From the NCBI GenBank assembly GCA_018812485.1, contig JAHJDO010000033.1:22435-86434 (forward strand): 64,000 nt of DNA, read 5' to 3'. This DNA is from a bacterium. Lineage in GTDB: Bacteria; JAHJDO01. Of the stretch, positions 20,778 through 54,939 are shown piece by piece. A program made the position numbers and the translations under genes. Within the stretch, counting starts at the first letter, position 1; each line of letters opens with the position of its first letter. Below the pieces are notes generated by a model. The model ran no database searches. It was given only the letters and a program-made list of their open reading frames with translations, and was not told the DNA's origin.

Positions 20778-20785
20778 AAGACTAG

Positions 20786-24601: not shown

Positions 24602-24634
24602 AATCTCTCCTTCCAAATTTTTCCATATTTCAAT

Positions 24635-25489: not shown

Positions 25490-25491
25490 AG

Positions 25492-26826: not shown

Positions 26827-27428
26827 CAGCTACTCTCCGTATCTTCCTGAGTGTACCAATCAACGTGACCGTCGAAGAAAAGGAAATTTGCTCCATTGTT
26901 ATGAACATAACTAACCTGACTACTATTGGCCATTCGATAGCGTGCAGCTCCTGCAGCCTCAAATCCTCCATCACTCACTGCAACTTTATCGCTGGGAATA
27001 CTAATCCGGCCTAACCTAAACTGCTGATTTTGATTGGGCGAACAATCTGCATTACCGAGATAGGCATTGTAGGCATAATTGACATTGTATGTTCCGAAAG
27101 CTCCAAGGTCCTTATTGCTTTGACAAAATAACAATGATGGTACATTCTTTAGGTCTACCTTCACTCCGTACGGCTCTAAGCATCTATACCAGGTTGCACC
27201 AGACCAAGCCATTGGTACATAGTCATCCCAGTCTGATGCGTACATTATGAGCATCTGATGAACTTGTCTTAGATTACTGATGCATTTTGCACGTCTTGCC
27301 ATCTCTCTTGCCTTGCTAAGTGCCGGGAGCAGCATACTGGCAAGCAAGCCGATAACTGCAATCACGACCAGGAGTTCTAAAAGCGTAAATCCGACACATC
27401 CAAACTTATCCCTCACCCATTTCATCAT
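26811..27428 (-). CDS. Prepilin-type N-terminal cleavage/methylation protein with C-terminal H-X9-DG motif (DUF1559 family)
   Basis: Prepilin leader and hydrophobic helix [36 protein letters not shown]-terminal [16 protein letters not shown] (H-X9-DG). RBS GAGGAGGG. Confidence 0.8.
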
Positions 27429-27482
27429 AATTTGTTCCCTCCTCTTTCTTTCGGAGACAATTATAGCATATAACGGACAACC

Positions 27483-28532
27483 TTAGTACAAAAGTGGTTT
27501 GTAATTTCTTGCATATTTTTTTATTAAAGTAGACTCTCGAACTACTAACTTAGTGTCAAGGGTAATATTTTCTGGCAGACTATCTTTATCTCCTCCCATA
27601 CGCTTTAATAATAACTCGGCAGCAAGTCGACCTTGCTCATACTTGGGCTGATTTACTGTGGTAAGAGGAGGATTCAAAAGAGCCGCCACGTATATGTCGT
27701 CAAATCCAACCAGAGCTATATCCTTAGGTATTTCTTTCCCTCTCTCTTTTATAGCTATCATCGCACCTATAGCTATTACATCATTAGCAGTAAAAATAGC
27801 TGTTGGTGGTGCCTTCATTCTTAAAAATTTTTCTATTCCTCTATAACCACTCTCTTGAGTAAACCCATTCTCTAAAATAAGTTTTCTGTCTACTAATAAA
27901 TTATGTTCAATTAAGGCTTTTCTATACCCTTCTTCTCGCTTTCTGCCAGTTATTATCTCAGACGTACCATTAATAAATCCTATCCGATTATGACCTAGTT
28001 CAATAAGATGAGAAGTAGCTACATAAGCACCTTCTAAGTCGTTAACAAAAATACGGTCTAATAGCAATCCATTTTCCTCTCGTTGGACTAAGACAATAGG
28101 GATATTTTCTTTCATAATTTCGTTAAGAACTTGAGTGGTTTTTTCATCCTCTTTCATCTCTGCACATATAAATATTATTCCATCTAATCGTCTTGACAAG
28201 AAAGTCCTTAGTATACTTTTCTCTTCTTCTGGATCATTGTAGCTATTACCTAAAATAATGTGATAAGCACTTTCTTTTACTCTGTCATAAACACCCTTAA
28301 TAACAGGCGGATAGAAAAAATTAGAAATGTCAGAAATTAAAACTCCTATAATATGAGTCTTCTTTGTTATCAAAACTTGAGCAGTATAATCAGGAATATA
28401 ATTTAGTTTCTTAGCTGCCCTTTCTATGCGACAGCGCGTATCTTTCTTTATATATCCTTTATTATTAAGACAGCGAGAAACTGTGCCACGAGAAACTTTT
28501 GCTTCTTTTGCTACATCGTAAATAGTTATCAT
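27483..28532 (-). CDS. LacI-family transcriptional regulator
   Basis: 349 aa; HTH MITIYDVAKEAKVSRGTVSRCLNNKGYIKKDTRCRIERAAKKLNYIPD plus a periplasmic-binding-fold sugar-sensor domain. Confidence 0.9.
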   Translation of the reverse strand: MITIYDVAKEAKVSRGTVSRCLNNKGYIKKDTRCRIERAAKKLNYIPDYTAQVLITKKTHIIGVLISDISNFFYPPVIKGVYDRVKESAYHIILGNSYNDPEEEKSILRTFLSRRLDGIIFICAEMKEDEKTTQVLNEIMKENIPIVLVQREENGLLLDRIFVNDLEGAYVATSHLIELGHNRIGFINGTSEIITGRKREEGYRKALIEHNLLVDRKLILENGFTQESGYRGIEKFLRMKAPPTAIFTANDVIAIGAMIAIKERGKEIPKDIALVGFDDIYVAALLNPPLTTVNQPKYEQGRLAAELLLKRMGGDKDSLPENITLDTKLVVRESTLIKKYARNYKPLLY

Positions 28533-28636
28533 ATTCTATGAAATCGATTTTCTTATTTAGGGCTATTACACTGCATTTAATAAAAAAATAGCATATCTCT
28601 GAGATATTGTCAAGTATAAAATCGTTTTCATAAATA

Positions 28637-29713
28637 TTAATACCAGCCATAATGCGAAAGTACTTCTTCAGCTTCTTTTTGAGATGAACAACGGGTGGAA
28701 ATTAATAGGCCTTCTGGAGAAAGATTCTCCAGAACAAAATCAATTTCATGTGGTTCACATAAAACCATAATTGCCTTCTTTTTAGCCTGCATTTTCTTAT
28801 AAATTGGTATCCACTTAACAATACCCTCTTTTCTAAATCCAGCTCCAGGAACCCACTCAATTGCATTAAGCCTTGTAATTTCAAGAAGCATATCCAGATG
28901 TTTCAAAGCATCTGGTCCATCAAGATGATAGACCGAATAATCCAGATAATTGATTTCGTTTAGTATTTCTTCTAAGAAAAACTCTTCATACATCTTGGTA
29001 GAAATAAGACATGTAAAATCGTTTTGAACAGGATACATCTTTCCTGGGGCCCAAATATCTATCCAAGAACATATTCCCTTTTGTTTCTCTCTTATAATCT
29101 GATAGCTTTCCTCATAAACTTTATGCCATGAGTTCCATAAAAGTTTCATAGCCTTTTTGACTCCATCAGGATTATCAATTAAATCTATACATAATTTCTC
29201 GGGGCCTCCCCTTAAAACTGCTAATGAATCCATACCAGCATGAAGGTCCGTTATGCCAACAAGGTAATTCCCATGGGAGCGTTCCAGAGCATAGGATGTA
29301 AACTCTTTTGTTTTCTGCCAATAGAAATTATCTTCTTTAATCTCAAGACCAGACAAATCAGAATAATCCTTTAGAACTGGCCTGTTCCAGTTTATCCAAG
29401 AAACAGGTTGATTAGAACCAAGTGGAGAAAATTCCAGGGTTGCACCCATATAAGCAGAGAAAACATCAGGACCAAAGTTTGTCCAATATTGGGGAAAAGC
29501 CAACCCGCCATAAAAGGTGTTTTGAATTTTTCGCTCTGCAAGTTTAATAACCTTCTCTTTATTAAGTCTATCTTTTGGACTTCCAATATACGTTTCATCT
29601 TGTTGATGCTTCTCGCGTGGAGCTTTTACCTCAAGAGCTGCTTTATCCAGAACCTCACAGTTCCACCACGCTATGTAATATTTTTTTATCTTTTCAAAAT
29701 CTTTATTTATCAT
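28637..29713 (-). CDS. Hypothetical protein, 358 aa; weak resemblance to URO-D/MtaA-like TIM-barrel proteins (unverified)
   Basis: Long ORF abutting the GH4 gene stop. A loose URO-D-like pattern (...YHLDGPDALKHLDMLLEITRLNAIEWVPGAG...) but no firm motif. Confidence 0.3.
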   Translation of the reverse strand: MINKDFEKIKKYYIAWWNCEVLDKAALEVKAPREKHQQDETYIGSPKDRLNKEKVIKLAERKIQNTFYGGLAFPQYWTNFGPDVFSAYMGATLEFSPLGSNQPVSWINWNRPVLKDYSDLSGLEIKEDNFYWQKTKEFTSYALERSHGNYLVGITDLHAGMDSLAVLRGGPEKLCIDLIDNPDGVKKAMKLLWNSWHKVYEESYQIIREKQKGICSWIDIWAPGKMYPVQNDFTCLISTKMYEEFFLEEILNEINYLDYSVYHLDGPDALKHLDMLLEITRLNAIEWVPGAGFRKEGIVKWIPIYKKMQAKKKAIMVLCEPHEIDFVLENLSPEGLLISTRCSSQKEAEEVLSHYGWY

Positions 29714-36920: not shown

Positions 36921-38093
36921 TTACTTTCTATTTTTGCAATTTATTTTCTCATAAATCTCCAAGATACGCTTTGCATTGTGTTTCCAGGTATAGTAATTTA
37001 CTATTTTTCGTCTTGCATTAGAACCTAATTTTCCCCTAAGAATAGTATTTTTAGCAAGTTTTATAATATTGGTCAGGAGTTCTTCTTTATCCTCAGGCTT
37101 GATTAATAATATTTCTTTTTCATTTTCAAAGAATCTATTCATTTGGCCTTGTGCCGGGGCAATAGTAGGTTTAGCCATTGCCATATATTCAAAAATTTTA
37201 ACGGGAGAGCTGTAAATACTCATATTGGGAAGAACTGTTATATCCATTGCTGCAATATATGTGGGTATATCGTTATGTGAAACAGCGCCAGTAAAAGTAA
37301 CAATATTCTCTAATTTGTTACTTTTAACAAATTTTTTTAATTTGTGTTCTTCGAATCCCTCTCCGACTATAAGGAAGTGAATATCTGGTATTTGCTGTTT
37401 GCATTTTGCTGCTACATCAAGAAGTAGAGAGAGACCCTGCCTTTTGCTGAGACTTCCAACAAATCCCACAATTTGTTTTTTCTCAAGTTTGTATTTTTTT
37501 CTAATGGGAATCCCGGATATCTTCGGATTGAATTTTTCGGAATCTACACCATCAGGGACTTCAAAAACCTTGTTTTTATCTACCCCTTTTCTGATAACAT
37601 AGTCTCTAAGATTATCTGTCGTTATAATTATTGCCCCAGCGCTTCTGAATATATTATTTTCTACGTATCTGGCTAAAGGTCTGAAATTCAATCTCCGCTT
37701 AGGACCCCGCAAAAGCGCTGCATTAACCTCTAACATAAATGGTATGTTAAATTTTTGAGCTAACTTCATGCCTGCGCTTCCATAAAGCTCATATCGTTCA
37801 TAGATTAAATCTGGCTTTGCATTGTTAAATAGGATCATGGCTTTTTTGTAGAGCTTGCCGCTCGTAATTGCCATTCTTAGATCAGAACCCAATTTCTTTG
37901 ATGTAAATGGGGATACTTCGTGAATCGCATATTGCCCATTTTCATGGTTTTCTGCGCCCTTATTTGTTGCGATTACAGATACTTCGTGATTTAATTTAAT
38001 TAGCGCATTAATAACTTCGCGTATATGAATAGAAGCCCCCTTTACTCCCATTATTGGAATTTGGCTGTCTTCACAGAGGTATGCTATTTTCAT
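36921..38093 (-). CDS. Glycosyltransferase family 4 (GT-B, group 1)
   Basis: 390 aa; C-terminal GT4 region EGFEEHKLKKF...SPVKIFEYMAMAKPTIAP. Confidence 0.8.
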   Translation of the reverse strand: MKIAYLCEDSQIPIMGVKGASIHIREVINALIKLNHEVSVIATNKGAENHENGQYAIHEVSPFTSKKLGSDLRMAITSGKLYKKAMILFNNAKPDLIYERYELYGSAGMKLAQKFNIPFMLEVNAALLRGPKRRLNFRPLARYVENNIFRSAGAIIITTDNLRDYVIRKGVDKNKVFEVPDGVDSEKFNPKISGIPIRKKYKLEKKQIVGFVGSLSKRQGLSLLLDVAAKCKQQIPDIHFLIVGEGFEEHKLKKFVKSNKLENIVTFTGAVSHNDIPTYIAAMDITVLPNMSIYSSPVKIFEYMAMAKPTIAPAQGQMNRFFENEKEILLIKPEDKEELLTNIIKLAKNTILRGKLGSNARRKIVNYYTWKHNAKRILEIYEKINCKNRK

Positions 38094-38097
38094 ATAA

Positions 38098-38490
38098 TCA
38101 GAACCTGTTTATTTGAAACCTGCCTTCATCTATCATTCGAGCAAGTTTTTTCTTCACTAAATACTTTATCCATTTTCTCGTAACAGGGATTATGGCTACT
38201 AATCCAATAAAGTCTGTAATTAAGCCGGGGGTGAGCAAGAGAAGTCCTCCTGCTAGTATCATTATTCCATCCAGAATTTCTTCCTTTGGCATAATACCAA
38301 CAGAAAGCTGATTTTGAACCTCTCTAATTACTGCTAATCCCTGCCATCTTGCAAGTGAAGCGCCAAAAATACCCGTTGTAACAACAATTAAAATTGTATT
38401 TAAGAGGCCAATGTGACGGCCGATTTTTATTAGCAGAACCAGCTCTGTCATTGGAAGAAGCGTAAAGAGCAAAAGCAGGTAAAAGAACAT
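38098..38490 (-). CDS. fxsA: FxsA-family cytoplasmic membrane protein
   Basis: 130 aa; MFFYLLLLFTLLPMTELVLLIKIGRHIGLLNTILIVVTTGIFGASLARWQG follows the FxsA pattern (LLPLLEI.L.I.VG..IG...TLLLI..T...G..L.R.QG). Confidence 0.7.
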   Translation of the reverse strand: MFFYLLLLFTLLPMTELVLLIKIGRHIGLLNTILIVVTTGIFGASLARWQGLAVIREVQNQLSVGIMPKEEILDGIMILAGGLLLLTPGLITDFIGLVAIIPVTRKWIKYLVKKKLARMIDEGRFQINRF

Positions 38491-38509: not shown

Positions 38510-38962
38510 TCATTTTTTATAGCTTTTAAAGTATTCATCTCTGACATAGTTGCGGATTTTCAGGCGGTCTTCATACAGAACAGATATAAATTCTATTCCG
38601 CATACATCTCTTTTTAAGTCTATCCACACAACTCTGCCAACAGTGTTAATCTCTTCCTTATTTTCGCCATGAATTGAAATTATTAGTTTCAACTCCGTTC
38701 CTTCTTTTATGTTTGCCTTTAAAAGTTCTTTTAAATCCTCGTCTTCCAGGCATAGTCCTCCTTCACAGATATCTTTTGTATGCCCATTATATTCTAATTC
38801 AACAGAATCTAACAGGCCATATTGAACAGGAAGTTCTTTATCAAGCTTGACAATCCCGTATTTTACACTAAACGCTTTCTCAAGCCTGACATACCTTCTT
38901 TTGTCTTCATGTCTCCGTTTCCTGAAAAACATATCACTACTCCCTTTTATTTGGATTACCAC
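38510..38962 (-). CDS. PilZ-domain protein (putative c-di-GMP receptor)
   Basis: 150 aa; RxxxR-type motif RRHEDKRRYVR; DxSxxG-like motif DICEGGLCL. Confidence 0.6.
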   Translation of the reverse strand: MVIQIKGSSDMFFRKRRHEDKRRYVRLEKAFSVKYGIVKLDKELPVQYGLLDSVELEYNGHTKDICEGGLCLEDEDLKELLKANIKEGTELKLIISIHGENKEEINTVGRVVWIDLKRDVCGIEFISVLYEDRLKIRNYVRDEYFKSYKK

Positions 38963-38964: not shown

Positions 38965-40086
38965 TTAAGTGTAAAAATCATACAAATTCTCTGTTTTTTC
39001 AACCATTCTGTCAATACTAAAGTTTAACACTCTTTTCTCTGCTTCTTCTCCCATCTTTTTTGCCAGTTCTTGATTATTAATCAGATTGAGACTATATAAA
39101 GCCAGGTCTTCAGGAGATTGAGGCGGGATGATAAATCCTGTTTCTCCATGTTTTACAACTTCACTATTACCTCCAACGTCTGTTACAACAACAGGTTTTC
39201 CAGCAGCCATGGATTCTAGAATTGTTATTGAGAATCCCTCTCTTAAAGAAGTCAGAACAGATATATCTGACATTGCAAGAATTTGTGGAATGTCCTCTCT
39301 CAAACCTGCAAATATTACATTTTTGCTAATCTCCAAATCCTCTGACATACTTCTTAACTGCTTCTTCAGTGGGCCATCACCTACAATTAAAAATTTTACA
39401 TTTAGGTTTTTCTTTCCTATTATTTGGGCTGCTTTTAAAAAGCAAACGTGTCCTTTCTGTTGATGCAAGCGTCCTATTGTAGTTATAACTTTATCATCTG
39501 ATTTTATCCCAAATTCTTCCCTTTTTTTGTTTATATTCACATAAGTTTGAAATTTTGGAATATCAACTCCATTATAAATTGTAATAATTTTATCTTCAGA
39601 TATTCCTATTTTTTTAACATAAAAATCTTTGACTGCCTCAGACACAGCAATAATTTTATTTGTAATTCCTGCTAATACTCTGTCACTCAATCTCTGAGGA
39701 AATTTCTTCCATGAATCAATATTGTGTTCATTAGCTATTATTACTGGTACTACTGCTAATTTGGCAGCTATTCTTCCTGCAAGGTTTGCTCTATATAGAT
39801 GAGTATGTACAATATCTATTTTCATCCTTCTGATAAGAGCAGCAAGTCTTACTATTCCTCCTATATATCTTCCATCAAAATCTAGTCGTGCTCTCATTCT
39901 AAATTTTATAATAGGGATACCTAAAGATTCTATATCATTTGCCAATTTATCTCGTCTAAAAAGACAACATACATAAACTTTATATTTTGTTTTATCTAAT
40001 CTTGGAAGTACGGATGTCAGTGTTCTTTCAACGCCACCCATTTCAAGAGAAGGGACTATGCGGAGAATTCTAACTAGCTTTTTCAT
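38965..40086 (-). CDS. Glycosyltransferase family 4
   Basis: 373 aa; N-terminus VRILRIVPSLEMGGVERTL; C-terminal ...SLREGFSITILESMAAGKPVVVTDVGGNSEVV. Confidence 0.8.
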   Translation of the reverse strand: MKKLVRILRIVPSLEMGGVERTLTSVLPRLDKTKYKVYVCCLFRRDKLANDIESLGIPIIKFRMRARLDFDGRYIGGIVRLAALIRRMKIDIVHTHLYRANLAGRIAAKLAVVPVIIANEHNIDSWKKFPQRLSDRVLAGITNKIIAVSEAVKDFYVKKIGISEDKIITIYNGVDIPKFQTYVNINKKREEFGIKSDDKVITTIGRLHQQKGHVCFLKAAQIIGKKNLNVKFLIVGDGPLKKQLRSMSEDLEISKNVIFAGLREDIPQILAMSDISVLTSLREGFSITILESMAAGKPVVVTDVGGNSEVVKHGETGFIIPPQSPEDLALYSLNLINNQELAKKMGEEAEKRVLNFSIDRMVEKTENLYDFYT

Positions 40087-40180: not shown

Positions 40181-41035
40181 TTAAGAAGAGGTTTTTATTT
40201 CATCAATAAATCGAGAAAGAGCGGTTTCTGTTTCCTTATCGTTTGAGATAAATTGTATCCCAATATTGTAATCTTCTTTTTTCTGTAAGCGCCAGACTGT
40301 CTGTCCATTTATTTCTAAATATTTTTTGACATCCAACAAAGGAATTCTCACTTTAAGTTTTATATCTTCTTTTATTCTGGAGTCGTTTGTATCCTTATGC
40401 TTTGGTAGCGTTATACAGATCCCGCCAAGACTTATATCTTTTGTATAGCCATAGTATACAATCAGATGTTTTTCTGAATCTTTTTGCAATCTTAACTCAA
40501 CGGCTTCACCAACAGCATATCGCGGATATTTCCTTCGCTCTTGTTCTATGTGTTTATTCATATCGCTTCTTTCCGCAGGAGGTTTTTCCTCCATAGCAAT
40601 TAGTTTTATTATGTCTTCTGAAGACGTAGCATTCATCAAAGCATCCCTGAAAGCTTTATTTCTAAGAAGGCGGGATATTCTGGCTAGAGTTTTCAAGTGC
40701 GGACAAATTTCTCTGCTTGGAGAAATGATCATAAAGAAAAGATTTACAGGCTCATTATCGATTGCATCAAAACTTATGCCTTTTTTTGATCTTCCAAAAA
40801 CGATAATTTTTTCTTTAATAGAAGATGTTTCTGCATGCGGAATAGCAACCCCATTTCCTATTGCAGTGCTGCCGCGCGCTTCTCTCTCTAAAACGGCTTT
40901 ATGCAGTGCATTTTCTGAATTGGCAAGCCCCTTTTTTATGATTGGAGATATTAACTCTTTGATTACGTCTTCTTTTTTATCAGACAAGAGATCAAGAAGA
41001 ACTAACTCTTTTCGCATGAAATCAGAAAGACTCAT
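40181..41035 (-). CDS. Fusion of a PTS EIIA-type-2 (PtsN / EIIA-Ntr-like) domain with a C-terminal PilZ domain
   Basis: N-terminus ...LHKAVLEREARGSTAIGNGVAIPHAETSS...VNLFFMIISP (EIIA-2 fold with the phospho-His region IPHA). C-terminus ERRKYPRYAV (RxxxR) and DISLGGICI (DxSxxG), i.e. PilZ. Confidence 0.65.
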   Translation of the reverse strand: MSLSDFMRKELVLLDLLSDKKEDVIKELISPIIKKGLANSENALHKAVLEREARGSTAIGNGVAIPHAETSSIKEKIIVFGRSKKGISFDAIDNEPVNLFFMIISPSREICPHLKTLARISRLLRNKAFRDALMNATSSEDIIKLIAMEEKPPAERSDMNKHIEQERRKYPRYAVGEAVELRLQKDSEKHLIVYYGYTKDISLGGICITLPKHKDTNDSRIKEDIKLKVRIPLLDVKKYLEINGQTVWRLQKKEDYNIGIQFISNDKETETALSRFIDEIKTSS

Positions 41036-41136
41036 CCGTTCTCCAGCTTTCTTGTGTCACGTATGTATTCTAATTTTATAAGAAGATATAAACAATGGGG
41101 ATTCTGCGGGTGGATAATGGGTATATAAAATACCCG

Positions 41137-42864
41137 CTAAATGGTTTGGAGGAAGGAAGTTAAGTTGATATCTTTTTTGTGTATTCCCATTTTGCGTCTG
41201 ATATTTTTGCGGTGTTTTTCAACTGTCTGGTAAGAAATATTTAAAAGCCCGGAAATCTCTTTACTTGTGAGCTTGCCCTTTATCATATTGCAGATTTCAA
41301 TTTCCCTGGGAGTTAGATTAAGTCTTTTCCCTCTTATTTTACGGCCAAACGAAGACACCAATTCCCCTAAATGGTTTTTTAATAAATCAACATATTTACC
41401 GGCAGTCTTCTCTAATTCAAGCTTTTCTAAAATTGGAAACAATAATTCACTTACATTAGCCGCTATATTATCTTTCATCTTTTTCTTTTCCACTTCAATC
41501 TGCGCTATGATTTCGCTGAGCGCAATGTTTTTTTGCTCCAAAGCCGATTTTTGTCTCTGCAATTTTGCTGCCGTCTCTTTCAACATCTTCTCTGTCCTCT
41601 TACGCTCGGTGATGTCCCAAGAAATACCCAATAGCCCAACGATGTTGTCCCGTTCATCCCTAGCAGGACACTTGACTGTGTATTCAATGAATTCTTTTTC
41701 ATTTATGACACGTTTATCTTCTATTTCTTCTGTTTTTCCGGATTTGATAATCCTTTCATCATCTGCTCTATATTTCTCAGCCAGTTCCTTTGGAAAGAAA
41801 TCATAATCTGTTTTTCCTGCGATTTCTTCACGCCTGATTTTTTTGTCTCGTACAAAGCTTTCGTTACAAGAGACAAAAACCAAATTGCTGTCCAATAAAA
41901 ATACCTTCTGAGGAAGATTCTCAAGAAGTGTTTTGTACTTGTTTTTACTATTACGCAGCTCCTCCTCTGTGAGTTTGCGTTCAGTGATTTCCTTTTCAAG
42001 TTCTGCTGTACGACTATCGACCATGTCTTCCAGATGATCGCGGTACTTTTTTAATTCCTTCTCTATCCTCTTGCGCCCTGTAATATCTCTGACTGTCGCC
42101 TGCAGGAAAGTTTTTTCTCCGATACTTATTCTTGTCAGCAAAACGGTGGAAAAGAAGTCCTCGCCATTCAGCTTTTTGTGCGTCCACTCAAAAAAGTTTG
42201 ATCCTTTTTCCATTGCTATGTTAATCATTTTTTTTGCTTTACTTATGGAGGATTGTCCGTCCGGCTGAAACTCTGGAGAGTACTTCCACGGAGGCGCAGA
42301 AACAAACGTTTCTTCATCTTTCACGCCGAACAGTTCAAGCGTGGCAGCATTTCCTGAAGTAAAATTCCAGGACGGCGGAGCAAGTGTCATTATTGCGTCA
42401 CGTGAAGTTTCAAATAAGAGCCGATATCTTTCCTCACTTTCATCCAATTGCTTTCTCGTCTTCCTTTGCTTGCTAATATCCCAGAAGATACCCAATATTC
42501 CTACGATATTGCCTCCTTTATCATCCCTAACAGGTGTTTTGATTGTATGAACAAATACTTTTCGTCCATCCAGAAGATACTCTTCTTCAATATCTTCTGC
42601 TATTCCGGATTTTATAATTCTTTTATCGTCTATCCTGTATTTTTCGGCTAATTTCTTAGAGTAAAAATCGTGATCCGTCTTTCCGACGATTTCTGAAACT
42701 TTAATCTTTAAGTCCCTGGCATAATTCTCGTTGCAGTAGATATAAACTGAGTTTTTATCTTTAAGAAATATTTTTTGCGGAAGATTCTCAAGGAGCGTTC
42801 TATACATGTTTTCGCTTTCCTGCAGAGCTTTCTCCGCACTTTTTAATTTGGATATATTCGTCAT
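41137..42864 (-). CDS. Triple-PAS sensor fused to a LuxR/GerE-type HTH (transcriptional regulator)
   Basis: 575 aa; PAS modules 1 and 3 are clear internal duplicates (ENLPQKIFLKDKNSVYIYCNENYARD... and ENLPQKVFLLDSNLVFVSCNESFVRD...). C-terminal HTH LTPREIEICNMIKGKLTSKEISGLLNISYQTVEKHRKNIRRKMGI. Confidence 0.7.
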   Translation of the reverse strand: MTNISKLKSAEKALQESENMYRTLLENLPQKIFLKDKNSVYIYCNENYARDLKIKVSEIVGKTDHDFYSKKLAEKYRIDDKRIIKSGIAEDIEEEYLLDGRKVFVHTIKTPVRDDKGGNIVGILGIFWDISKQRKTRKQLDESEERYRLLFETSRDAIMTLAPPSWNFTSGNAATLELFGVKDEETFVSAPPWKYSPEFQPDGQSSISKAKKMINIAMEKGSNFFEWTHKKLNGEDFFSTVLLTRISIGEKTFLQATVRDITGRKRIEKELKKYRDHLEDMVDSRTAELEKEITERKLTEEELRNSKNKYKTLLENLPQKVFLLDSNLVFVSCNESFVRDKKIRREEIAGKTDYDFFPKELAEKYRADDERIIKSGKTEEIEDKRVINEKEFIEYTVKCPARDERDNIVGLLGISWDITERKRTEKMLKETAAKLQRQKSALEQKNIALSEIIAQIEVEKKKMKDNIAANVSELLFPILEKLELEKTAGKYVDLLKNHLGELVSSFGRKIRGKRLNLTPREIEICNMIKGKLTSKEISGLLNISYQTVEKHRKNIRRKMGIHKKDINLTSFLQTI

Positions 42865-43955
42865 CGATACACCTTCGCTGTCAGCTGTGCAAGTCTGGTT
42901 TCTGAAAATTCATTTATGATAACTTGTTTTCCTTTTCTTGCCATTTCTAAGAATTTGTGTCTATTATTTATCACATCAAGAATAGCATTGGCTAAAGCTT
43001 CTGGATTATGAGGCGAAACTAAAATGCCTGTAACTCCATCCTGGATTATCTCGGGAATTCCGCCTACATTAGTTGAAACAACAGGTTTTTCCATAATAAG
43101 TGCTTCCTTGATTACAGCAGGAGATCCTTCAACAGAAGAAGAAAGCACAAATATATCAATTTCTGAGAGGATTCGGGGGATATCTTCTCTTTTACCTGCG
43201 AATATAACGTAATTACTTAATTCCATTTTTTGAACCATGCTTTTAAGTTCCGATTCCAGAATTCCATCTCCAACAATCAGTAATTTAATATTCCTAACTC
43301 TTTTAATAATAATCTTTAGTGCCTCAAACATATTCGGATAGTCTTTATGTTCCCTCAATCTGCCTATCATGCCTAGAACTACTGTATCAGAAGCAATACT
43401 AAACTCCTTGCGTATAGCTTCTCCACTAAAGTTGTCATTGAATTTTTTTACATCTATAGAACTATGAATAGTAATGATTTTATTCTTGAAAATGTTATTT
43501 TCATCAATTAGCTGTCTTTTTATTACTTCAGCCACTGCTATTATTCTATCTGTCCATTCTTTATAAAGTTTATTGTTTATCCAGTTGTTTTTTATTCTTG
43601 TGAAATTATGGCGTGTGCGGATAATTTTGCATTGACCGGACAAACCAAATAATCTAACAGCCAAGACACCAATCCAGTGGTCTGATGAACGGTGTGTGTG
43701 CAAGATATCAACTTTATGAGTTTTTAGAAACCTTGACAGTTTCCATATAACTACCGGGTTAAATTTCCATTTGCCTATTTTAAGAGACAATAACGGGATA
43801 TTATACGAACCTGCTTTTTTACATAATGGGCTTGACGGAGACACAGCTAGAATTATTTTAAACTGATCACTGTTAAGCAATCTGCTGATTGAGAATATTC
43901 TCTGCTCTATCCCGCTCCAAACCTCACCTGCGTTTATGTGTAAGATAGTTCGCAC
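42861..43955 (-). CDS. Glycosyltransferase family 4
   Basis: 364 aa; ...SSSVEGSPAVIKEALIMEKPVVSTNVGGIPEIIQDGVTGILV (GT4 C-terminal E-x7-E region). Confidence 0.8.
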   Translation of the reverse strand: MRTILHINAGEVWSGIEQRIFSISRLLNSDQFKIILAVSPSSPLCKKAGSYNIPLLSLKIGKWKFNPVVIWKLSRFLKTHKVDILHTHRSSDHWIGVLAVRLFGLSGQCKIIRTRHNFTRIKNNWINNKLYKEWTDRIIAVAEVIKRQLIDENNIFKNKIITIHSSIDVKKFNDNFSGEAIRKEFSIASDTVVLGMIGRLREHKDYPNMFEALKIIIKRVRNIKLLIVGDGILESELKSMVQKMELSNYVIFAGKREDIPRILSEIDIFVLSSSVEGSPAVIKEALIMEKPVVSTNVGGIPEIIQDGVTGILVSPHNPEALANAILDVINNRHKFLEMARKGKQVIINEFSETRLAQLTAKVYR

Positions 43956-45325
43956 TATATCTCAAGTTCCTTCTTAAATGCCTTCTTAATGTATTCAAAA
44001 TATAACTCTTTATTCTCACTATTCTCTGGCAGGGTCTCGTTTGTAATAGCTTCAAGTATCTTATGTTTCATTTTCCCTATTAAAGGAGATGGGGAAAGAT
44101 TAAATTTATCCATTAACTCATCTCCGGTGATTGGAAATTTGGATTCTTTTGCTGAAATCAGCTCCTCACATCTCCCCTCAAGCTCAGATAATTCTTCCAG
44201 CTTTTTTCGAACCCTCTCCTTCTTGTATGATGTTATATCTGCCTTAGAAATACTGAGAATATCTGAGAGCTTATCCCCCATCTTGGTTGCAAACCGTCTC
44301 ACTGCGGTGTCTGTCCATAGAGAAGTATAAAGATTTGCTCTCATATGTTTCCTGATTAAAAAGCATATGTGCTTGCGATCCTGATTGGAGAATCTGAGTC
44401 TTGTAAGGATTCCCCATGCCATCTTAGCGCCTAAATCTTCATGCCTATAAAAATGCACATTTTTCTCATCTATTGTTCTTACGTATGGTTTCGCTATGTC
44501 GTGAAGCAGTGCAGTCCATCTGATTTTCTCATCTAAAGGGCAATTTTTAACAACTTTTACTGTATGCATCCATACGTCCTTATGATGAAGCTGGCTATCT
44601 TCATGCAGGTTCTTCAGAGGAACAAGTTCTGGTATGAAGTAGTTAATCACTTCGTTTTTCATCAAATTTTCCAGCGCTAGTTCCAAATGATTTCCAAGTA
44701 ATAGCTTAGTCATTTCATCTCTTATTCTTTCACTCGAGAGGTTCAGCAGTCTGTAAGCGTTCTTTTTTAAGGATGAGCGAGTCTTCTCTTCAATCTCAAA
44801 TCCTAATTGAGATTGGAACCTTAATGCTCTTAGAATTCTCAGAGAATCATCTGCAAATGCAGTGTCTGGATTCTTAGGTGTTCTGATTAATTTTTGCTCT
44901 AAATCTTCCCTTCCTTTAAAAGGATCAATTATTTTTGAGTCAGCAGCGCCTATCGCTATCGTATTTATTGTAAAATCCCTGCGCTCTAAGTCCTCCATTA
45001 TATTGCTTCCAAAATCCACATCCGGTTTTCTGCTAATACCTCTGTATATCTCTTTTTTCCTGAATGTTGTAATATGCAATTCAACTTTGTCTATGAATGC
45101 GCCGACTGTTCCAAAATTTATGCCGACAGGATATGTTTTTATCCTGCTATTTCGTAGAATTTTGATAATTTCAGAAGGTGTTGCAGAGGTAGCAAAATCG
45201 TAATCATTGAGAGGCTTTTCCATTAACAGATCGCGCACTGAGCCCCCAACAAGATATACGGATTTCCCTGCCTGGCTGAAGATTCTAAAAATACTCTGTA
45301 TTATTCTATTTTCTATTTTTAGCAT
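43955..45325 (-). CDS. cca: tRNA nucleotidyltransferase (CCA-adding enzyme) with HD domain
   Basis: 456 aa; polymerase-beta head YLVGGSVRDLLMEKPLNDYDFAT...RRDFTINTIA; HD motif ALLHDIAKP. Confidence 0.8.
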   Translation of the reverse strand: MLKIENRIIQSIFRIFSQAGKSVYLVGGSVRDLLMEKPLNDYDFATSATPSEIIKILRNSRIKTYPVGINFGTVGAFIDKVELHITTFRKKEIYRGISRKPDVDFGSNIMEDLERRDFTINTIAIGAADSKIIDPFKGREDLEQKLIRTPKNPDTAFADDSLRILRALRFQSQLGFEIEEKTRSSLKKNAYRLLNLSSERIRDEMTKLLLGNHLELALENLMKNEVINYFIPELVPLKNLHEDSQLHHKDVWMHTVKVVKNCPLDEKIRWTALLHDIAKPYVRTIDEKNVHFYRHEDLGAKMAWGILTRLRFSNQDRKHICFLIRKHMRANLYTSLWTDTAVRRFATKMGDKLSDILSISKADITSYKKERVRKKLEELSELEGRCEELISAKESKFPITGDELMDKFNLSPSPLIGKMKHKILEAITNETLPENSENKELYFEYIKKAFKKELEI

Positions 45326-46425
45326 TACTTTGTCTTTATATATTCCATAATAGGAGTCATCATCTTTAACGGCAAATTTAACAACCGCTGAAACAATCCT
45401 AATGTCATGTCTTCCAGTAATTCATGCTGAACCACTGTTGCCTTTAAATGTCCGCCTTTACTCCTTTTTAATCTGACATAGAAAGCAAGTAAGTTCCCAT
45501 CCTCTCCTGTTATAATATAACCCAAAATTGGTATTTTATTCAACACCTCATCAACAATCTGCATCAGCTCAATTCCAAAAATCATATCTGTTGACTCTTT
45601 AACCATATCAATATCGCCTTTGCCTGAAATTCTCATTCTCTCGCCGTCAATATATAGACTTTCTACATTAATTACTCCAGAATTTATTACTGCTTTAGCC
45701 GTGGCTGTACTATATTTTATTCCCTCCTCATCCATTTTAGGCAGTCTTAATTTTATTACATCATACATATTAATAAGAGTGAACATTCTAACGAATATAT
45801 GTTGTTTAGTTAAATATCCATTATTTAATATTATATCTAAATTTCCGTTCAGGTTCTTTTTTATTTCATCAATAGACTTGCCACGGCTTCTTATATTTCC
45901 CTCGCAGTTCAGCACTCCACTAAATGTAAGATTTTTAATGCCAAACTTTGGAGCCAGTTTTTGGATATCAACATTTTTTATTTTGTATATTGAATCAAAT
46001 TCAATGCCATATGGGGAAGAAAAATTAAGTTTACCTGAAAGCTCAGCTTCCCCCTCTGCTAGTTTTAATTTTATCCTATGGATATGCAGTATCCTGTCTT
46101 TTATATAGAGTGGCAGATGTGGCGTAACGATTTTTATGTCATCATATATGCCCTTTTCTATTTCAAAGCTTGTCATGTTATTCTCCAAGATAACTTTACC
46201 TGTAAAATCAATAGGAATGGCAGGGGTTGAATTTTTGATTGAGACATTTGCAGAGTGAAGATCAAATCCTATCTGTACTCTCTCAACATGAACTCTATTC
46301 TGCGAAATTTTATTAACAACTCTCTTAATATACAAGCTTCCGATCACTCCAATCAGTCTGTAACATATAAATAGGATAATGAAGATAAAAAATACAATAT
46401 AAAGAGCTTTCTTAAATTTGGGCAT
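45325..46425 (-). CDS. Membrane-anchored hypothetical protein, AsmA-like
   Basis: 366 aa; single N-terminal TM (LYIVFFIFIILFICYRLIGVIGSL) followed by an extended beta-rich region, as in AsmA/DUF748-type proteins. Weak call. Confidence 0.35.
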   Translation of the reverse strand: MPKFKKALYIVFFIFIILFICYRLIGVIGSLYIKRVVNKISQNRVHVERVQIGFDLHSANVSIKNSTPAIPIDFTGKVILENNMTSFEIEKGIYDDIKIVTPHLPLYIKDRILHIHRIKLKLAEGEAELSGKLNFSSPYGIEFDSIYKIKNVDIQKLAPKFGIKNLTFSGVLNCEGNIRSRGKSIDEIKKNLNGNLDIILNNGYLTKQHIFVRMFTLINMYDVIKLRLPKMDEEGIKYSTATAKAVINSGVINVESLYIDGERMRISGKGDIDMVKESTDMIFGIELMQIVDEVLNKIPILGYIITGEDGNLLAFYVRLKRSKGGHLKATVVQHELLEDMTLGLFQRLLNLPLKMMTPIMEYIKTK

Positions 46426-51118: not shown

Positions 51119-51820
51119 CTATTTCGGAATGCGATAAATAGAAATGGTGGTATTTTTCCCTGATTCAACAACAATTCCTCCAAGCTGAGAGGCAAATGCT
51201 CTTTTTATATCCTGATTTGGCTTGCTTTTATCTATTGCTTCTCTTAAGACAAAATCTGCATTCTTGATCGGTTTCCAATCCTCATCAAAATTCTTGAACG
51301 TATAAATGTCAAATCTCCTGAACGCAAAATTCTTCCCCATGGAAGTTTTTCTATCCCTGTGTTTTTCTACAAGCACTTTTGCAGTATAGATATTTCCCTG
51401 AAACATTATCACTTTTTTTGAATCGAAAAAGTCTTTTTCCTCTTCTATTTTCTTACTGATTGCTCTTTTCTCAAGTAAGCTCAAAGGGACTCCATTTCCC
51501 TCCACCCTAAGATTTACTCCCTCAATGGCTAGATCATGTGTTATTACAGAAATATCATATGTTCCGGAAGGGATGTTTTCTATGGAGAATCCGCCTGTAG
51601 TTTTGTTGAAATCGGCTTTGTATCTATTTCCCTTGCCATCTTTGTTAAAAGGTCCCGTTGCTCTAACCAATGCGTGTATACTGACTACTTTTTCTTTTGG
51701 CTCTATTGTACCTGATATTGAGCCGGTAGTTTGTGCGAAACTAGTTCTAATTAACAATAAGGACAGCAAAATAGAAACTGGAATTATTTTAAATGGATTA
51801 TTGCTTTTTGAAATGGTCAT
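51119..51820 (-). CDS. Secreted hypothetical protein with carboxypeptidase-regulatory-like (CarboxypepD_reg) beta-sandwich
   Basis: ATG at 51820 (the track TTG is at 51826). Signal peptide MTISKSNNPFKIIPVSILLSLLLIRTSFAQ; GSISGTIEP...ATGPFNKDGKG...FSIENIPSGTYDISV pattern. Confidence 0.45.
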   Translation of the reverse strand: MTISKSNNPFKIIPVSILLSLLLIRTSFAQTTGSISGTIEPKEKVVSIHALVRATGPFNKDGKGNRYKADFNKTTGGFSIENIPSGTYDISVITHDLAIEGVNLRVEGNGVPLSLLEKRAISKKIEEEKDFFDSKKVIMFQGNIYTAKVLVEKHRDRKTSMGKNFAFRRFDIYTFKNFDEDWKPIKNADFVLREAIDKSKPNQDIKRAFASQLGGIVVESGKNTTISIYRIPK

Positions 51821-52742
51821 ATCCAAACTTCGTAAGTTTTGTTAGTCTATTGTCTTTTTTCAGATAAATACCCTTACCCTTAGTAATTTCGCCGACACAG
51901 TAGCCGTATGCTTTTTTGCTTCTTTCTTTTGAAACAGTATAAACAAGCTCAAAATCCTCTCCTCCATAAAGAGCAAAATCCAAAGCATCTTCTCCACAAG
52001 CCTGAGCAGCCATATGAGTTTGGTCATTTATGGGAACCTTATCTGCATATATAATAACTCCACATTTGCTCTGCTCGGAGATATTTCTGAGCTCAGAGGC
52101 AAGCCCGTCACTTATATCCTCCATTGCATTGGCATAGCCTGCAATCTCCCATGATACATCCAGCCTTGATTGAGGGGTAGTGTGGCATCTTTTAGTCACT
52201 TCAAATCCTTTTATTTCTTTTCTGAAAAGATGCAAGCCTGCTGTTGATGCGCCGAGAAGCCCTGTTACAAATATAAGGTCTCCCGCCTTTGCATCTTTTC
52301 TCATACAAAGATGTTTTTTATCTGTTTCGCCTATCAAAGTTATAGTAATAACATTCGCATTTCCGTGTGTAGTGTCGCCTCCTATTATATCGACATTATG
52401 CTTTTTGCACCTATTTCTCATCCCTTTGTATATTTCCTCAACCATATGCATTGTTGAATCAGATTTTAATACAAGAGAAACCAATACATACAAAGGCACA
52501 CCTCCCATTGCAGCAATATCGGAAAAATTACTTTCAATGGCTTTTATGCCAATCTGCTCAGGTGTAAAATAGGAAAAAGAAAAATGATCATGTTCAACAA
52601 TAGTGTCCGTTGTTAATAAAAGAAACTTGTTACCATATTTTATTACAGCAGCATCATCTCCTATGCCGCAGATTACTTCCTTTCTTACTGCGCGAGCAGC
52701 AATATGTTTTATTAACTCAAACTCTCCGCTAAGCTTTGTCAC
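51798..52742 (-). CDS. thiL: Thiamine-monophosphate kinase
   Basis: 314 aa; AIR-synthase-related fold with ThiL N-terminus FELIKHIAARAVRKEVICGIGDDAAVIKYGNKFLLLTTDTIVEHDHF. Confidence 0.8.
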   Translation of the reverse strand: MTKLSGEFELIKHIAARAVRKEVICGIGDDAAVIKYGNKFLLLTTDTIVEHDHFSFSYFTPEQIGIKAIESNFSDIAAMGGVPLYVLVSLVLKSDSTMHMVEEIYKGMRNRCKKHNVDIIGGDTTHGNANVITITLIGETDKKHLCMRKDAKAGDLIFVTGLLGASTAGLHLFRKEIKGFEVTKRCHTTPQSRLDVSWEIAGYANAMEDISDGLASELRNISEQSKCGVIIYADKVPINDQTHMAAQACGEDALDFALYGGEDFELVYTVSKERSKKAYGYCVGEITKGKGIYLKKDNRLTKLTKFGYDHFKKQ

Positions 52743-54767: not shown

Positions 54768-54832
54768 TTTTCACCTCCATAAAAAAATCTGCTCCATTCA
54801 GGAACAGATTAAAACCAATTCTAATTTATTTT

Positions 54833-54915: not shown

Positions 54916-54939
54916 ATTTTTATTATAATTCTTTTATGA

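What the first reader, a model, noticed from the sequence alone, without database searches (positions are those of the whole stretch)
40181..41035. EIIA(Ntr)-PilZ fusion protein: a possible link between PTS-Ntr signalling and c-di-GMP
A single ORF combines an N-terminal PTS EIIA-2/PtsN-like domain (phosphorylatable His in ...GVAIPHAETSS...) with a C-terminal PilZ domain carrying both RxxxR (RRKYPR) and DxSxxG (DISLGG) motifs. I do not recognise this architecture as a described regulator type. It lies among exopolysaccharide/LPS glycosyltransferases next to a PAS-LuxR regulator. It could integrate nitrogen/carbon status (via PtsP/NPr phosphorylation) with c-di-GMP to control surface-polysaccharide synthesis.
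Basis: partly seen in the sequence, partly recalled or inferred. Interest (0 to 1): 0.55.

Follow-up and report, generated by a model that had tools for sequence, protein, structure and literature searches.

The report
PTS EIIA domain fused to PilZ
A real, conserved gene in an uncultured bacterial lineage joins a phosphorylatable PTS regulatory domain (EIIA, most like the nitrogen-PTS protein PtsN) to a c-di-GMP-receptor PilZ domain; I found no published description of this pairing, and it probably lets one small protein combine metabolic status with the biofilm second messenger, although its partners and targets are not shown.

Summary
Window 40181-41035 (minus strand) encodes a 284-aa protein with PTS_EIIA_2 (aa 6-147, E=1e-39) and PilZ (aa 166-278, E=1e-15). 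His67, Arg51 and His113 align with His73, Arg57 and His120 of E. coli PtsN. RRxxxR and D/NxSxxG are conserved. Models match IIA-Ntr (TM 0.92) and c-di-GMP-bound PilZ structures. It is not a frameshift artefact: 36 clusters (66-100% identity) from independent sources carry it, and both halves are under purifying selection. Sister genomes hold the same two domains as abutting separate genes in the same slot, which argues that the two parts work together. The family is narrow: one 50%-identity representative among 1.84 billion, all from unclassified MAGs. It has paralogues. Type A sits in a conserved envelope-glycosyltransferase cluster after a PAS-LuxR gene. Type B sits elsewhere, twice beside Ser/Thr-kinase-PilZ genes. 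No paper I found describes the architecture. The functional reading is only partly supported. No EI/HPr or c-di-GMP enzymes lie in the window or were tied to these genomes. The EI of the nearest relatives lacks a GAF domain, so nitrogen sensing is doubtful. The polysaccharide target rests on synteny alone. Verdict: a new domain architecture built from known parts, of moderate interest.

The parts
40181..41035 (-). EIIA-PilZ fusion gene (284 aa plus stop)
   Evidence: ORF listing and sequence. Identical protein P0001 is in NCBI/Logan. Both Pfam domains are above their cutoffs.
41041..41044 (-). Shine-Dalgarno GGAG, 5 nt before the ATG
   Evidence: Read directly from the sequence.
40595..41020 (-). 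PTS_EIIA_2 domain (aa 6-147), IIA-Ntr-like
   Evidence: Pfam E=1.2e-39. Best PDB sequence hit is E. coli PtsN 1A6J, E=4.7e-20. AF2 pLDDT is about 80-94 over most of the domain. Foldseek top hit is 2A0J IIA-Ntr, TM 0.92, rmsd 1.4 A.
40835..40837 (-). His67 codon (CAT), predicted phosphorylation site
   Evidence: Aligns with His73 of E. coli PtsN; Arg51 and His113 align with Arg57 and His120. Invariant in 59 EIIA sequences.
40541..40594 (-). Purine-rich interdomain linker (aa 148-165), variable in length, and the site of natural gene fission
   Evidence: Linker length differs between homologues (273-287 aa proteins). Net 1-nt frameshifts here give the split EIIA + PilZ gene pairs in L004, L021 and L022.
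40202..40540 (-). PilZ domain (aa 166-278)
   Evidence: Pfam E=1.3e-15. AF2 model has pLDDT 79 and pTM 0.73, with six strands and a C-terminal helix. The Foldseek hits with E<=0.001 are PilZ-domain proteins, most solved with c-di-GMP bound: YcgR, MotI, Alg44, BcsA, PlzD, MrkH, MapZ.
40520..40537 (-). RRKYPR (aa 167-172): first c-di-GMP-binding motif (RxxxR), placed at the domain junction
   Evidence: R167, R168 and R172 are invariant in 26 fusions. The two RxxxR arginines are invariant in 45 PilZ-module sequences.
40421..40438 (-). DISLGG (aa 200-205): second c-di-GMP-binding motif (D/NxSxxG)
   Evidence: Sequence. D or N at 200, S202 and G204 nearly invariant, G205 invariant.
41137..42864 (-). 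PAS(x3)-LuxR/GerE transcription regulator, always directly upstream of type A copies
   Evidence: Pfam. Adjacency is conserved in L002, L004, L007 and L008, with a varying number of PAS domains.
42861..43955 (-). GT4 glycosyltransferase; its end overlaps the PAS-LuxR start by 4 nt
   Evidence: Pfam; synteny.
38965..40086 (-). GT4 glycosyltransferase, always directly downstream of type A copies (94-nt gap)
   Evidence: Pfam; synteny.
38510..38962 (-). Second, stand-alone PilZ protein (RRYVR; DICEGG, i.e. Ser replaced by Cys)
   Evidence: Pfam PilZ E=3.9e-9. 41% identical over 73 aa to the fused PilZ. Only about 60% conserved between relatives, and absent in L008.
36921..38490 (-). FxsA-family membrane protein (38098-38490) and a third GT4 (36921-38093), the downstream end of the conserved cluster
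   Evidence: Pfam; synteny.

Best explanation
The gene encodes a small cytoplasmic signalling adaptor with two inputs and no enzymatic or DNA-binding output of its own.

Shown:
- The N-terminal half is an IIA-Ntr-like PTS domain with an intact phospho-histidine site.
- The C-terminal half is a canonical PilZ domain with both c-di-GMP-binding motifs.
- Both halves are under purifying selection.
- The two halves also occur as abutting, separately translated genes in sister genomes, so they act together whether or not they are covalently joined.

Inferred:
- His67 is phosphorylated by an HPr-type protein of a permease-less EI-HPr relay. That would report PEP/carbon-energy status rather than nitrogen.
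- c-di-GMP binds at the RRxxxR motif, which sits exactly at the junction of the two domains. As in YcgR/PlzD-type two-domain PilZ proteins, binding would fix the relative orientation of the domains.
- That reorientation would gate either access of HPr to His67 or binding of the EIIA surface to its target.
- Output would then be by protein-protein contact, as it is for PtsN and for stand-alone PilZ adaptors.
- For the copy in this window (type A), the most likely partners are encoded next to it: the PAS-LuxR regulator and/or the GT4 glycosyltransferases of the LPS-core/envelope-polysaccharide cluster.
For: - Domains and motifs.
- Catalytic-residue alignment to PtsN His73, Arg57 and His120.
- Folds: EIIA matches IIA-Ntr 2A0J with TM 0.92. 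The PilZ model's Foldseek hits with E<=0.001 are PilZ-domain proteins, most with c-di-GMP bound.
- dN/dS is 0.15-0.28 for EIIA and 0.23-0.48 for PilZ.
- Fusion versus split in the same syntenic slot: L004/L005, found on 5 contigs, with a TGAtATG junction. Further split pairs are L021 and L022, with different frameshifts.
- The EIIA tree places the split forms inside the fused clade.
- Type A synteny GT4 / PAS-LuxR / EIIA-PilZ / GT4 is conserved in five loci. There is no minus-strand terminator within the cluster.
- There is no EIIB or EIIC anywhere in the 64-kb window.
- The nearest stand-alone EIIA relatives lie in EIIA / CofD-YvcK-like / HPr / EI operons with no permease.
- Precedents from papers: the PilZ protein HapZ gates His-phosphotransfer (PMC10333796). 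PtsN acts by binding partners such as GlmS, and PTS-Ntr influences exopolysaccharide production (PMC13104625; PMC5024086). Fused PilZ domains keep c-di-GMP binding, and the C-terminal PilZ helix is an interaction surface (10.1101/814665).
Against: - No EI, HPr or diguanylate cyclase/phosphodiesterase was found in the window or linked to the fusion-bearing genomes. Both inputs are inferred from residue conservation only.
- The interdomain geometry could not be modelled. The PilZ half had pLDDT below 50 in the full-length model.
- Paralogues (type B) sit in unrelated neighbourhoods, so the polysaccharide-cluster target may be incidental or specific to type A.
- The protein fails the PtsN equivalog cutoffs.
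- Promoter and terminator scans were not above chance.
Confidence: 0.55

Rival explanations
1. Same dual-input protein, but it is not dedicated to the neighbouring polysaccharide genes. It would be one node of a lineage-wide c-di-GMP/phospho-signalling network, built from a mobile PilZ module that is attached to different phospho-signalling domains (EIIA, Hanks-type Ser/Thr kinase). Its real partner might then be the kinase-PilZ protein or a global regulator.
For: - The PilZ module (51-74% identity) occurs stand-alone in about 30 clusters, in tandem (P0046), fused to Ser/Thr kinases (P0049-51) and fused to EIIA.
- A kinase-PilZ gene and an EIIA-PilZ gene are in the same MAG, GCA_043824255.1.
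- Type B EIIA-PilZ is directly next to kinase-PilZ in L020, and close to it in L021.
- One MAG (JAUWOV01) has two EIIA-PilZ paralogues.
- L019 lies near a GAF-sigma54 activator, glnA and GOGAT genes.
Against: Type A copies keep the same slot between PAS-LuxR and GT4 in all five loci examined, including the split form. That degree of conservation argues for a local functional link, at least for the window's copy.
Confidence: 0.25
2. One of the two domains is signalling-dead. Either the PilZ domain is only a protein-interaction or localisation module that no longer binds c-di-GMP, or the EIIA domain is a non-phosphorylated regulatory fold.
For: No c-di-GMP-metabolising or PTS phosphorelay gene was seen in the window or tied to the genomes. 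Non-binding PilZ proteins are known (10.1101/814665). The neighbouring PilZ2 has a degenerate DICEGG motif.
Against: - The RxxxR arginines and the final glycine of D/NxSxxG are invariant, and the serine nearly so, across fused, split and kinase-fused copies.
- His67, Arg51 and His113 are invariant or nearly so.
- The census states that PilZ domains in fusion proteins invariably retain c-di-GMP binding.
- Both domains have omega well below 1.
Confidence: 0.12
3. It is an ordinary sugar-PTS component, as NCBI annotates it ('fructose PTS transporter subunit IIA'), passing phosphate to an EIIB/EIIC permease.
For: It passes the NCBIfam fruA IIA subfamily-domain cutoff (115.6 vs 103.5 bits). NCBI uses that name.
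Against: - There is no EIIB or EIIC in 64 kb or in any related locus.
- The closest sequence and structure relatives are IIA-Ntr proteins, well ahead of IIA-Mtl.
- The closest stand-alone homologues are in permease-less EI-HPr-EIIA operons.
- The C-terminal partner is a second-messenger receptor, not IIB.
Confidence: 0.05
4. The fusion is an artefact: a sequencing or assembly frameshift that joined two adjacent genes.
For: Split versions exist, and they differ from fused versions by net 1-nt indels in A-rich linker runs. Such runs are error-prone.
Against: The fused reading frame is found in 36 clusters at 66-100% identity, from NCBI MAGs, JGI, ENA and Logan assemblies, with several linker lengths. 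If anything is at risk of being an artefact, it is the single-contig split forms (L021, L022). The L004-type split is on 5 contigs from independent sources.
Confidence: 0.02

Closest known systems
PtsN / EIIA-Ntr (E. coli 1A6J, N. meningitidis 2A0J, Burkholderia 3URR/4GQX)
   Same: Same fold (TM 0.88-0.92, rmsd 1.4-1.7 A). It is the best sequence match among solved structures. The phospho-His, Arg and second His are conserved. No permease partner is present. PtsN is a regulator that acts by protein-protein contact.
   Different: It fails both PtsN equivalog cutoffs. It is not in an rpoN-hpf-ptsN-rapZ-npr context. It carries a C-terminal PilZ domain that no described PtsN has. The EI of the nearest relatives lacks the GAF domain of PtsP.
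Two-domain PilZ receptors with RxxxR in the interdomain linker (YcgR, PlzD/VCA0042, MotI, MrkH)
   Same: Canonical C-terminal PilZ with RRxxxR placed immediately after a flexible linker from the N-terminal domain. The PilZ fold matches them. In those proteins, c-di-GMP binding at the junction re-orients the two domains (established knowledge; 10.1101/814665).
   Different: The N-terminal domain here is a PTS EIIA, not a degenerate PilZ-like (PilZN/xPilZ) domain.
Stand-alone PilZ adaptors that modulate phospho-signalling (HapZ-SagS, MapZ-CheR1 of P. aeruginosa)
   Same: A PilZ domain uses c-di-GMP to gate a phosphotransfer or methyltransfer partner by direct contact (PMC10333796). The split EIIA + PilZ gene pairs (L004, L021, L022) would work in just this way.
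   Different: The partner would be a PTS EIIA rather than a histidine kinase or CheR. In most members the partner is covalently fused.
Ser/Thr kinase-PilZ proteins (Pkn1/MXAN_1467 type)
   Same: A phospho-signalling domain followed by a C-terminal PilZ. The same lineage has such proteins, with a PilZ module 63-68% identical to the fused one, sometimes encoded next to EIIA-PilZ. The architecture is mentioned in 10.1101/814665.
   Different: A Hanks kinase rather than a PTS EIIA.
EIIA-Glc control of c-di-GMP in Vibrio cholerae (PdeS) and EIIA-Glc/CsrD
   Same: A PTS EIIA protein is coupled to c-di-GMP signalling (PMC6877527; PMC10333796).
   Different: There, a glucose-family EIIA (an unrelated fold) regulates a phosphodiesterase in trans, upstream of c-di-GMP. 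Here, a mannitol/Ntr-family EIIA is physically joined to a c-di-GMP receptor.

Membership tests
PilZ domain (PF07238), canonical c-di-GMP receptor | Match to the family profile above the curated cutoff | tested here: met
   58 bits against a cutoff of 22.5, E=1.3e-15, covering 101 of 102 model positions.
PilZ domain (PF07238), canonical c-di-GMP receptor | RxxxR motif at the N-terminal edge of the domain | tested here: met
   R168-K-Y-P-R172, preceded by R167. Invariant in 26 fusions and in 45 PilZ-module sequences.
PilZ domain (PF07238), canonical c-di-GMP receptor | (D/N)xSxxG motif | tested here: met
   D200-I-S202-L-G-G205. D or N at 200, S202 nearly invariant, G205 invariant across homologues.
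PilZ domain (PF07238), canonical c-di-GMP receptor | [quoted passage not shown] | tested here: met
   AF2 model with pLDDT 79 has six strands plus helix 113-129. Foldseek hits with E<=0.001 are PilZ-domain proteins, most with c-di-GMP bound.
PilZ domain (PF07238), canonical c-di-GMP receptor | Binds c-di-GMP | not testable with these tools
   Needs DRaCALA, ITC or MST on purified protein.
PTS EIIA, mannitol/fructose/Ntr superfamily (PF00359) | Profile match and fold | tested here: met
   136 bits, E=1.2e-39. AF2 pLDDT is about 80-94 over most of the domain. TM 0.8-0.92 to IIA-Ntr and IIA-Mtl structures.
PTS EIIA, mannitol/fructose/Ntr superfamily (PF00359) | Phosphorylatable active-site His with its conserved Arg and second His | tested here: met
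   His67, Arg51 and His113 align with His73, Arg57 and His120 of E. coli PtsN. They are invariant or nearly so in 59 sequences.
PtsN / EIIA-Ntr (TIGR01419, NF008145 equivalogs) | Score above the curated equivalog cutoff | tested here: not met
   86.2 vs 138.7 bits and 84.2 vs 221 bits. It is therefore PtsN-like, not a PtsN equivalog.
PtsN / EIIA-Ntr (TIGR01419, NF008145 equivalogs) | Genomic linkage to rpoN-hpf-rapZ-npr or to EI/NPr genes | tested here: not met
   None of these is in the 64-kb window or in any fusion locus. The nearest stand-alone relatives are linked to CofD/YvcK-like, HPr and EI genes.
PtsN / EIIA-Ntr (TIGR01419, NF008145 equivalogs) | No cognate EIIB/EIIC permease (regulatory PTS branch) | tested here: met
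   No PTS_IIB or PTS_EIIC domain in the window or in related loci. The whole genome was not available.
PtsN / EIIA-Ntr (TIGR01419, NF008145 equivalogs) | Phosphorylated by NPr/HPr from EI(-Ntr) | not testable with these tools
   Needs an in vitro phosphotransfer assay. Whether EI and HPr exist in the same genomes could not be established.
Sugar-specific fructose EIIA (TIGR00848 fruA IIA subfamily domain) | Score above cutoff | tested here: met
   115.6 vs 103.5 bits. This is a domain-level model that does not separate transport from regulatory EIIA proteins.
Sugar-specific fructose EIIA (TIGR00848 fruA IIA subfamily domain) | Partnered with fructose/mannitol-type EIIB/EIIC | tested here: not met
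   No such genes are nearby in any locus. By contrast, other top EIIA hits with C-terminal extensions do carry IIB or IIC.

The most novel reading that the evidence does not exclude
EIIA-PilZ, fused or as a coupled gene pair, is a previously unrecognised class of signal integrator in which c-di-GMP directly gates a PTS phosphorelay branch (or in which EIIA phosphorylation sets the c-di-GMP affinity of PilZ). Together with the co-occurring Ser/Thr-kinase-PilZ paralogues, it would form a lineage-specific network in which one mobile PilZ module puts several phospho-signalling systems under second-messenger control. One output would be outer-membrane/LPS-type polysaccharide assembly.
Probability: 0.3. 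Interest if true: 0.65.

Novelty: new variant of a known kind. Interest (0 to 1): 0.45.

Why it matters
Cross-talk between the PTS and c-di-GMP is known only in trans, through glucose-family EIIA acting on c-di-GMP enzymes. Here a receptor for the messenger is physically coupled to an Ntr-type EIIA. The fused-versus-split pattern is classic 'Rosetta stone' evidence that the two parts interact.

If this is confirmed, three things follow:
- A new PilZ architecture joins the catalogue.
- A PTS regulatory branch gains a new kind of input (or output).
- A compact 284-aa protein with clear point-mutant controls (H67A, R168A/R172A, S202A) becomes available for testing how a second messenger and a phosphorelay are combined.

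It also corrects a database annotation ('fructose PTS transporter subunit IIA').

Two things limit its reach. The family is confined to one narrow, uncultured lineage, and both domains are individually well understood.

Tried and rejected
- **Frameshift artefact:** rejected, because 36 independent clusters carry the fusion.
- **PTS partners in the same organism:** the window has none. A search with an Omnitrophota EI returned more than 120 clusters at 79% identity or above, with nothing that could be assigned to the fusion MAGs, so this led nowhere.
- **c-di-GMP machinery in the window:** no GGDEF, EAL or HD-GYP gene. Rfam found only a TPP riboswitch and no c-di-GMP riboswitch.
- **Full-length AF2 model for domain packing:** the PilZ half had pLDDT below 50 with the first alignment. 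A PilZ-only model with a deeper alignment worked, but it says nothing about interdomain geometry.
- **PilZ against PDB by sequence:** no hit. The fold search was needed.
- **Independent EIIA-PilZ fusions elsewhere:** the exhaustive profile search gave a single representative. Ten other top hits with C-terminal extensions were tandem EIIA, EIIA-IIB(-IIC), or EIIA with an unassigned extension. Fusions scoring below about 125 bits would not appear in the 150 listed.
- **Promoter and terminator scans:** not above shuffled expectation.
- **AFDB fold search:** the library was unavailable.
- **Taxonomy:** all records are labelled only 'bacterium'. Omnitrophota/PVC affinity is suggested only by the nearest EIIA homologues and by DUF1559-type pseudopilins.
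- **L021 as a low-quality assembly:** I suspected this because the upstream gene looked broken. It is in fact an intact kinase-PilZ gene.
Full report
**1. Observation**

The ORF is real. It spans window 40181-41035 on the minus strand and encodes 284 aa. It starts at ATG, with a GGAG Shine-Dalgarno sequence 5 nt upstream.

Pfam finds PTS_EIIA_2 at aa 6-147 (136 bits, E=1.2e-39) and PilZ at aa 166-278 (58 bits, E=1.3e-15, 101 of 102 model positions).
- GVAIPH67AE (His codon 40835-40837)
- RRKYPR, aa 167-172
- DISLGG, aa 200-205

The neighbourhood is as described. A PAS(x3)-LuxR regulator lies directly upstream. GT4 glycosyltransferases flank both genes. Further along the same strand are a second small PilZ protein, FxsA, GT9 heptosyltransferase-like genes, a Wzy_C (O-antigen-ligase-like) gene, a polysaccharide deacetylase and an AsmA/YhdP-like gene.

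**2. Is it a genuine gene?**

Yes. An identical protein is in NCBI, where it is named 'fructose PTS transporter subunit IIA [bacterium]'. A further 35 clusters of full-length fusions (66-91% identity) come from NCBI MAGs, JGI, ENA and Logan assemblies. Three GTDB species representatives carry it.

In 26 full-length members, His67, Arg51, His113, R167, R168, R172 and G205 are invariant, and S202 and G204 are nearly so. Nei-Gojobori dN/dS between seven DNA copies is 0.15-0.28 for the EIIA half and 0.23-0.48 for the PilZ half. A frameshift artefact that joined two genes is therefore excluded.

**3. The two domains**

*EIIA.* The best solved-structure sequence matches are PtsN/IIA-Ntr proteins: E. 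coli 1A6J (E=4.7e-20) and N. meningitidis 2A0J (E=5.4e-18). IIA-Mtl (1A3A) is far behind at E=9e-6. His67, Arg51 and His113 align with PtsN His73, Arg57 and His120.

The AF2 model of this half is confident (pLDDT about 80-94 over most of the domain). It superposes on IIA-Ntr 2A0J with TM 0.92 and rmsd 1.4 A.

It nevertheless fails both PtsN equivalog cutoffs (86 vs 138.7 bits; 84 vs 221 bits), and it passes the generic fruA-IIA domain model (115.6 vs 103.5 bits). I therefore call it IIA-Ntr-like, not a PtsN orthologue.

*PilZ.* Sequence search against the PDB found nothing. A PilZ-only AF2 model built on a 45-sequence alignment reached pLDDT 79 and pTM 0.73. It shows the canonical six strands plus a C-terminal helix. 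Its Foldseek hits with E<=0.001 are PilZ-domain proteins, most solved with c-di-GMP bound: YcgR, MotI, Alg44, BcsA, PlzD, MrkH and MapZ.

**4. Fused and split forms**

In a sister lineage, the same slot between PAS-LuxR and GT4 holds two genes: EIIA (158 aa) and PilZ (126 aa). They are separated by one nucleotide (TGAtATG). This form is found on five contigs, including a JGI contig and an NCBI MAG.

Two further split pairs were verified. L022 has a TGAtATG junction. L021 has a GTGA overlap and sits in a different genomic context.

The junctions differ from one another:
- L022 has a +1 insertion in one A-run.
- L021 has a -1 deletion in a different A-run.
- L004 has a net +4 nt.

In each case the PilZ half restarts at the codon that corresponds to the linker Met159, or at a GTG.

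In an NJ tree of the EIIA part, the EIIA-only forms fall at four or more places inside the fused clade. The simplest history is an ancestral fusion followed by recurrent fission in the purine-rich linker. The single-contig cases could be homopolymer errors; the L004 form cannot be.

Either way, the two parts stay adjacent and intact. This is Rosetta-stone-type evidence that they function together.

**5. Distribution and relatives**

An exhaustive profile search of 1.84 billion 50%-identity representatives found one representative (P0028) that spans both domains. Every other hit in the top 150 (all at or above about 125 bits) matched only the EIIA part or only the PilZ part of the profile. Ten hits with C-terminal extensions were tandem EIIA, EIIA-IIB(-IIC), or EIIA with an unassigned extension. 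More distant independent fusions scoring lower cannot be excluded.

The PilZ module belongs to a lineage-specific expansion:
- about 30 stand-alone clusters of 119-129 aa, at 51-74% identity
- a tandem PilZ-PilZ protein (P0046)
- Ser/Thr-kinase-PilZ proteins (P0049-51, 63-68% identity in the PilZ part), one of them in the same MAG as a fusion

The fusion itself has paralogues. 'Type A' (272-287 aa) occupies the conserved glycosyltransferase slot in L001, L002, L007, L008 and, in split form, L004. 'Type B' (277-281 aa, 66-70% identity) lies elsewhere:
- In L020 it sits directly upstream of a kinase-PilZ gene, in a MAG (JAUWOV01) that also has a type A copy.
- In L021 it sits just downstream of a kinase-PilZ gene and an HTH_8 gene.
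- In L019 it sits between NTase/HEPN pairs, 1.3 kb upstream of a GAF-sigma54 activator, glnA and GOGAT genes.

**6. The inputs are inferred, not shown**

The scanned ORFs of the 64-kb window contain no EI, HPr/NPr, HprK, EIIB/EIIC, GGDEF, EAL or HD-GYP gene. There is no c-di-GMP riboswitch either.

The nearest stand-alone EIIA homologues (44-47% identity, Omnitrophota) sit in EIIA / CofD-YvcK-like / HPr / EI operons with no permease. Their EI is 576-578 aa and has no GAF domain. That EI is very widely conserved, with more than 120 clusters at 79% identity or above, but I could not assign any copy to the fusion-bearing MAGs.

A phosphorelay of the PtsI-HPr type, reporting PEP/carbon status, is therefore the most plausible donor.

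**7. Most likely mechanism**

The protein has no enzymatic or DNA-binding output, so it must act by contact. That is how PtsN acts on GlmS and its other partners (PMC13104625; PMC5024086). It is also how stand-alone PilZ adaptors act: HapZ gates SagS phosphotransfer, and MapZ binds CheR1 (PMC10333796).

The RRxxxR motif lies immediately after the flexible linker, exactly at the domain junction. This is the arrangement in YcgR- and PlzD-type proteins, where c-di-GMP binding fixes the interdomain orientation (established knowledge; 10.1101/814665).

I therefore propose that c-di-GMP binding re-orients PilZ against the EIIA domain. This would gate either phosphorylation of His67 or target binding by the EIIA face. 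The protein would then report the conjunction of metabolic state and c-di-GMP level.

For the window's type A copy, the conserved neighbours (the PAS-LuxR regulator and the GT4 enzymes of an LPS-core/envelope-polysaccharide cluster) are the best candidate targets. There is no minus-strand terminator within the cluster, though the scans were not above chance. The type B contexts show that this target cannot hold for the whole family.

**8. Novelty and score**

I found no paper in the library that mentions the architecture. Full-text searches gave nothing. The PilZ census lists REC, GGDEF, EAL, HD-GYP, MCP, CheC, HlyD and kinase fusions, but not PTS. A 2026 PTS-Ntr review has no mention of PilZ, c-di-GMP or fusions. 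Known links between the PTS and c-di-GMP act in trans, through glucose-family EIIA (PMC6877527).

It is a new domain architecture assembled from two well-known domains, confined to one narrow, uncultured lineage. I classify it as a new variant of a known kind, of moderate interest (0.45).

Noticed in passing
window 54818-54923 (-): TPP riboswitch (RF00059, 58.6 bits, E=6e-9) upstream of a thiamine operon: Thi4 (53985-54767), ThiC (52729-53988) and an AIR-synthase-related/ThiL-like gene (51798-52742). Ordinary.
   Followed up: partly
window 38510-38962 (-): A second, stand-alone PilZ protein two genes downstream of the fusion. It has RRYVR but a DICEGG motif (Ser replaced by Cys). It evolves faster than its neighbours (about 60% vs 80-90% identity) and is absent from the same slot in L008. 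It may be a weakened or non-binding PilZ.
   Followed up: partly
L018 8001-9170; L020 1984-3138; L021 2-1177: Ser/Thr-kinase-PilZ proteins (384-391 aa) whose PilZ module is 63-68% identical to the fused one. One is in the same MAG as a fusion. Two are encoded next to type B EIIA-PilZ genes. This suggests a shared pathway.
   Followed up: partly
L019 7180-8025 and 9298-17545: A type B EIIA-PilZ paralogue lies between NTase/HEPN toxin-antitoxin-like pairs and fragments of response-regulator/HisKA genes. It is 1.3 kb upstream of a GAF-sigma54 activator, glnA, NAD synthase and GOGAT subunits. This is a possible nitrogen-assimilation link for that paralogue only.
   Followed up: partly
window 41137-42864 (-) compared with L002 8550-9947 and L004 8617-9894: The PAS-LuxR regulator next to the fusion varies in length between close relatives (575, 465 and 425 aa), through gain or loss of PAS domains.
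   Followed up: no
window 45325-46425 (-): The AsmA/YhdP-like gene is only 366 aa here, against 527 aa in L002 and 646 aa (with DUF748) in L004. The N-terminal part seems to be missing in this genome.
   Followed up: no
L016 6001-9738; L017 6001-9725: Omnitrophota carry a compact, permease-less PTS operon: EIIA, a CofD/YvcK-like gene, HPr and EI. Its EI is at least 79% identical across more than 120 protein clusters, which is unusually strong conservation for a regulatory PTS.
   Followed up: partly
window 10905-29713 (-): A sugar-utilisation island: class II aldolase, FGGY kinase, alpha-L-rhamnosidase, GFO/IDH/MocA oxidoreductase, GH38 alpha-mannosidase, a 1276-aa Laminin_G_3 protein, a xylose-isomerase-like TIM barrel, an FAD oxidoreductase, a DUF1559/N-methyl pseudopilin-like protein and a LacI regulator. 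The DUF1559 protein hints at a PVC-group or Omnitrophota-like organism.
   Followed up: no
window 58087-59130 (-) and 5636-6064 (+): A Fic/DOC-family protein (347 aa) and a DUF6941 protein. Several ORFs have no Pfam match (28637-29713, 57630-57944, 20229-20567, 63640-63993).
   Followed up: no
window 40541-40594 (-) and the homologous linkers in L004, L021 and L022: Many fused genes keep an in-frame Met (Met159) at the end of the A-rich linker. A single-nucleotide indel in the linker then yields a stop codon that overlaps this ATG, so the gene converts to a translationally coupled pair in one step. Whether internal initiation or ribosomal frameshifting also occurs was not tested.
   Followed up: partly
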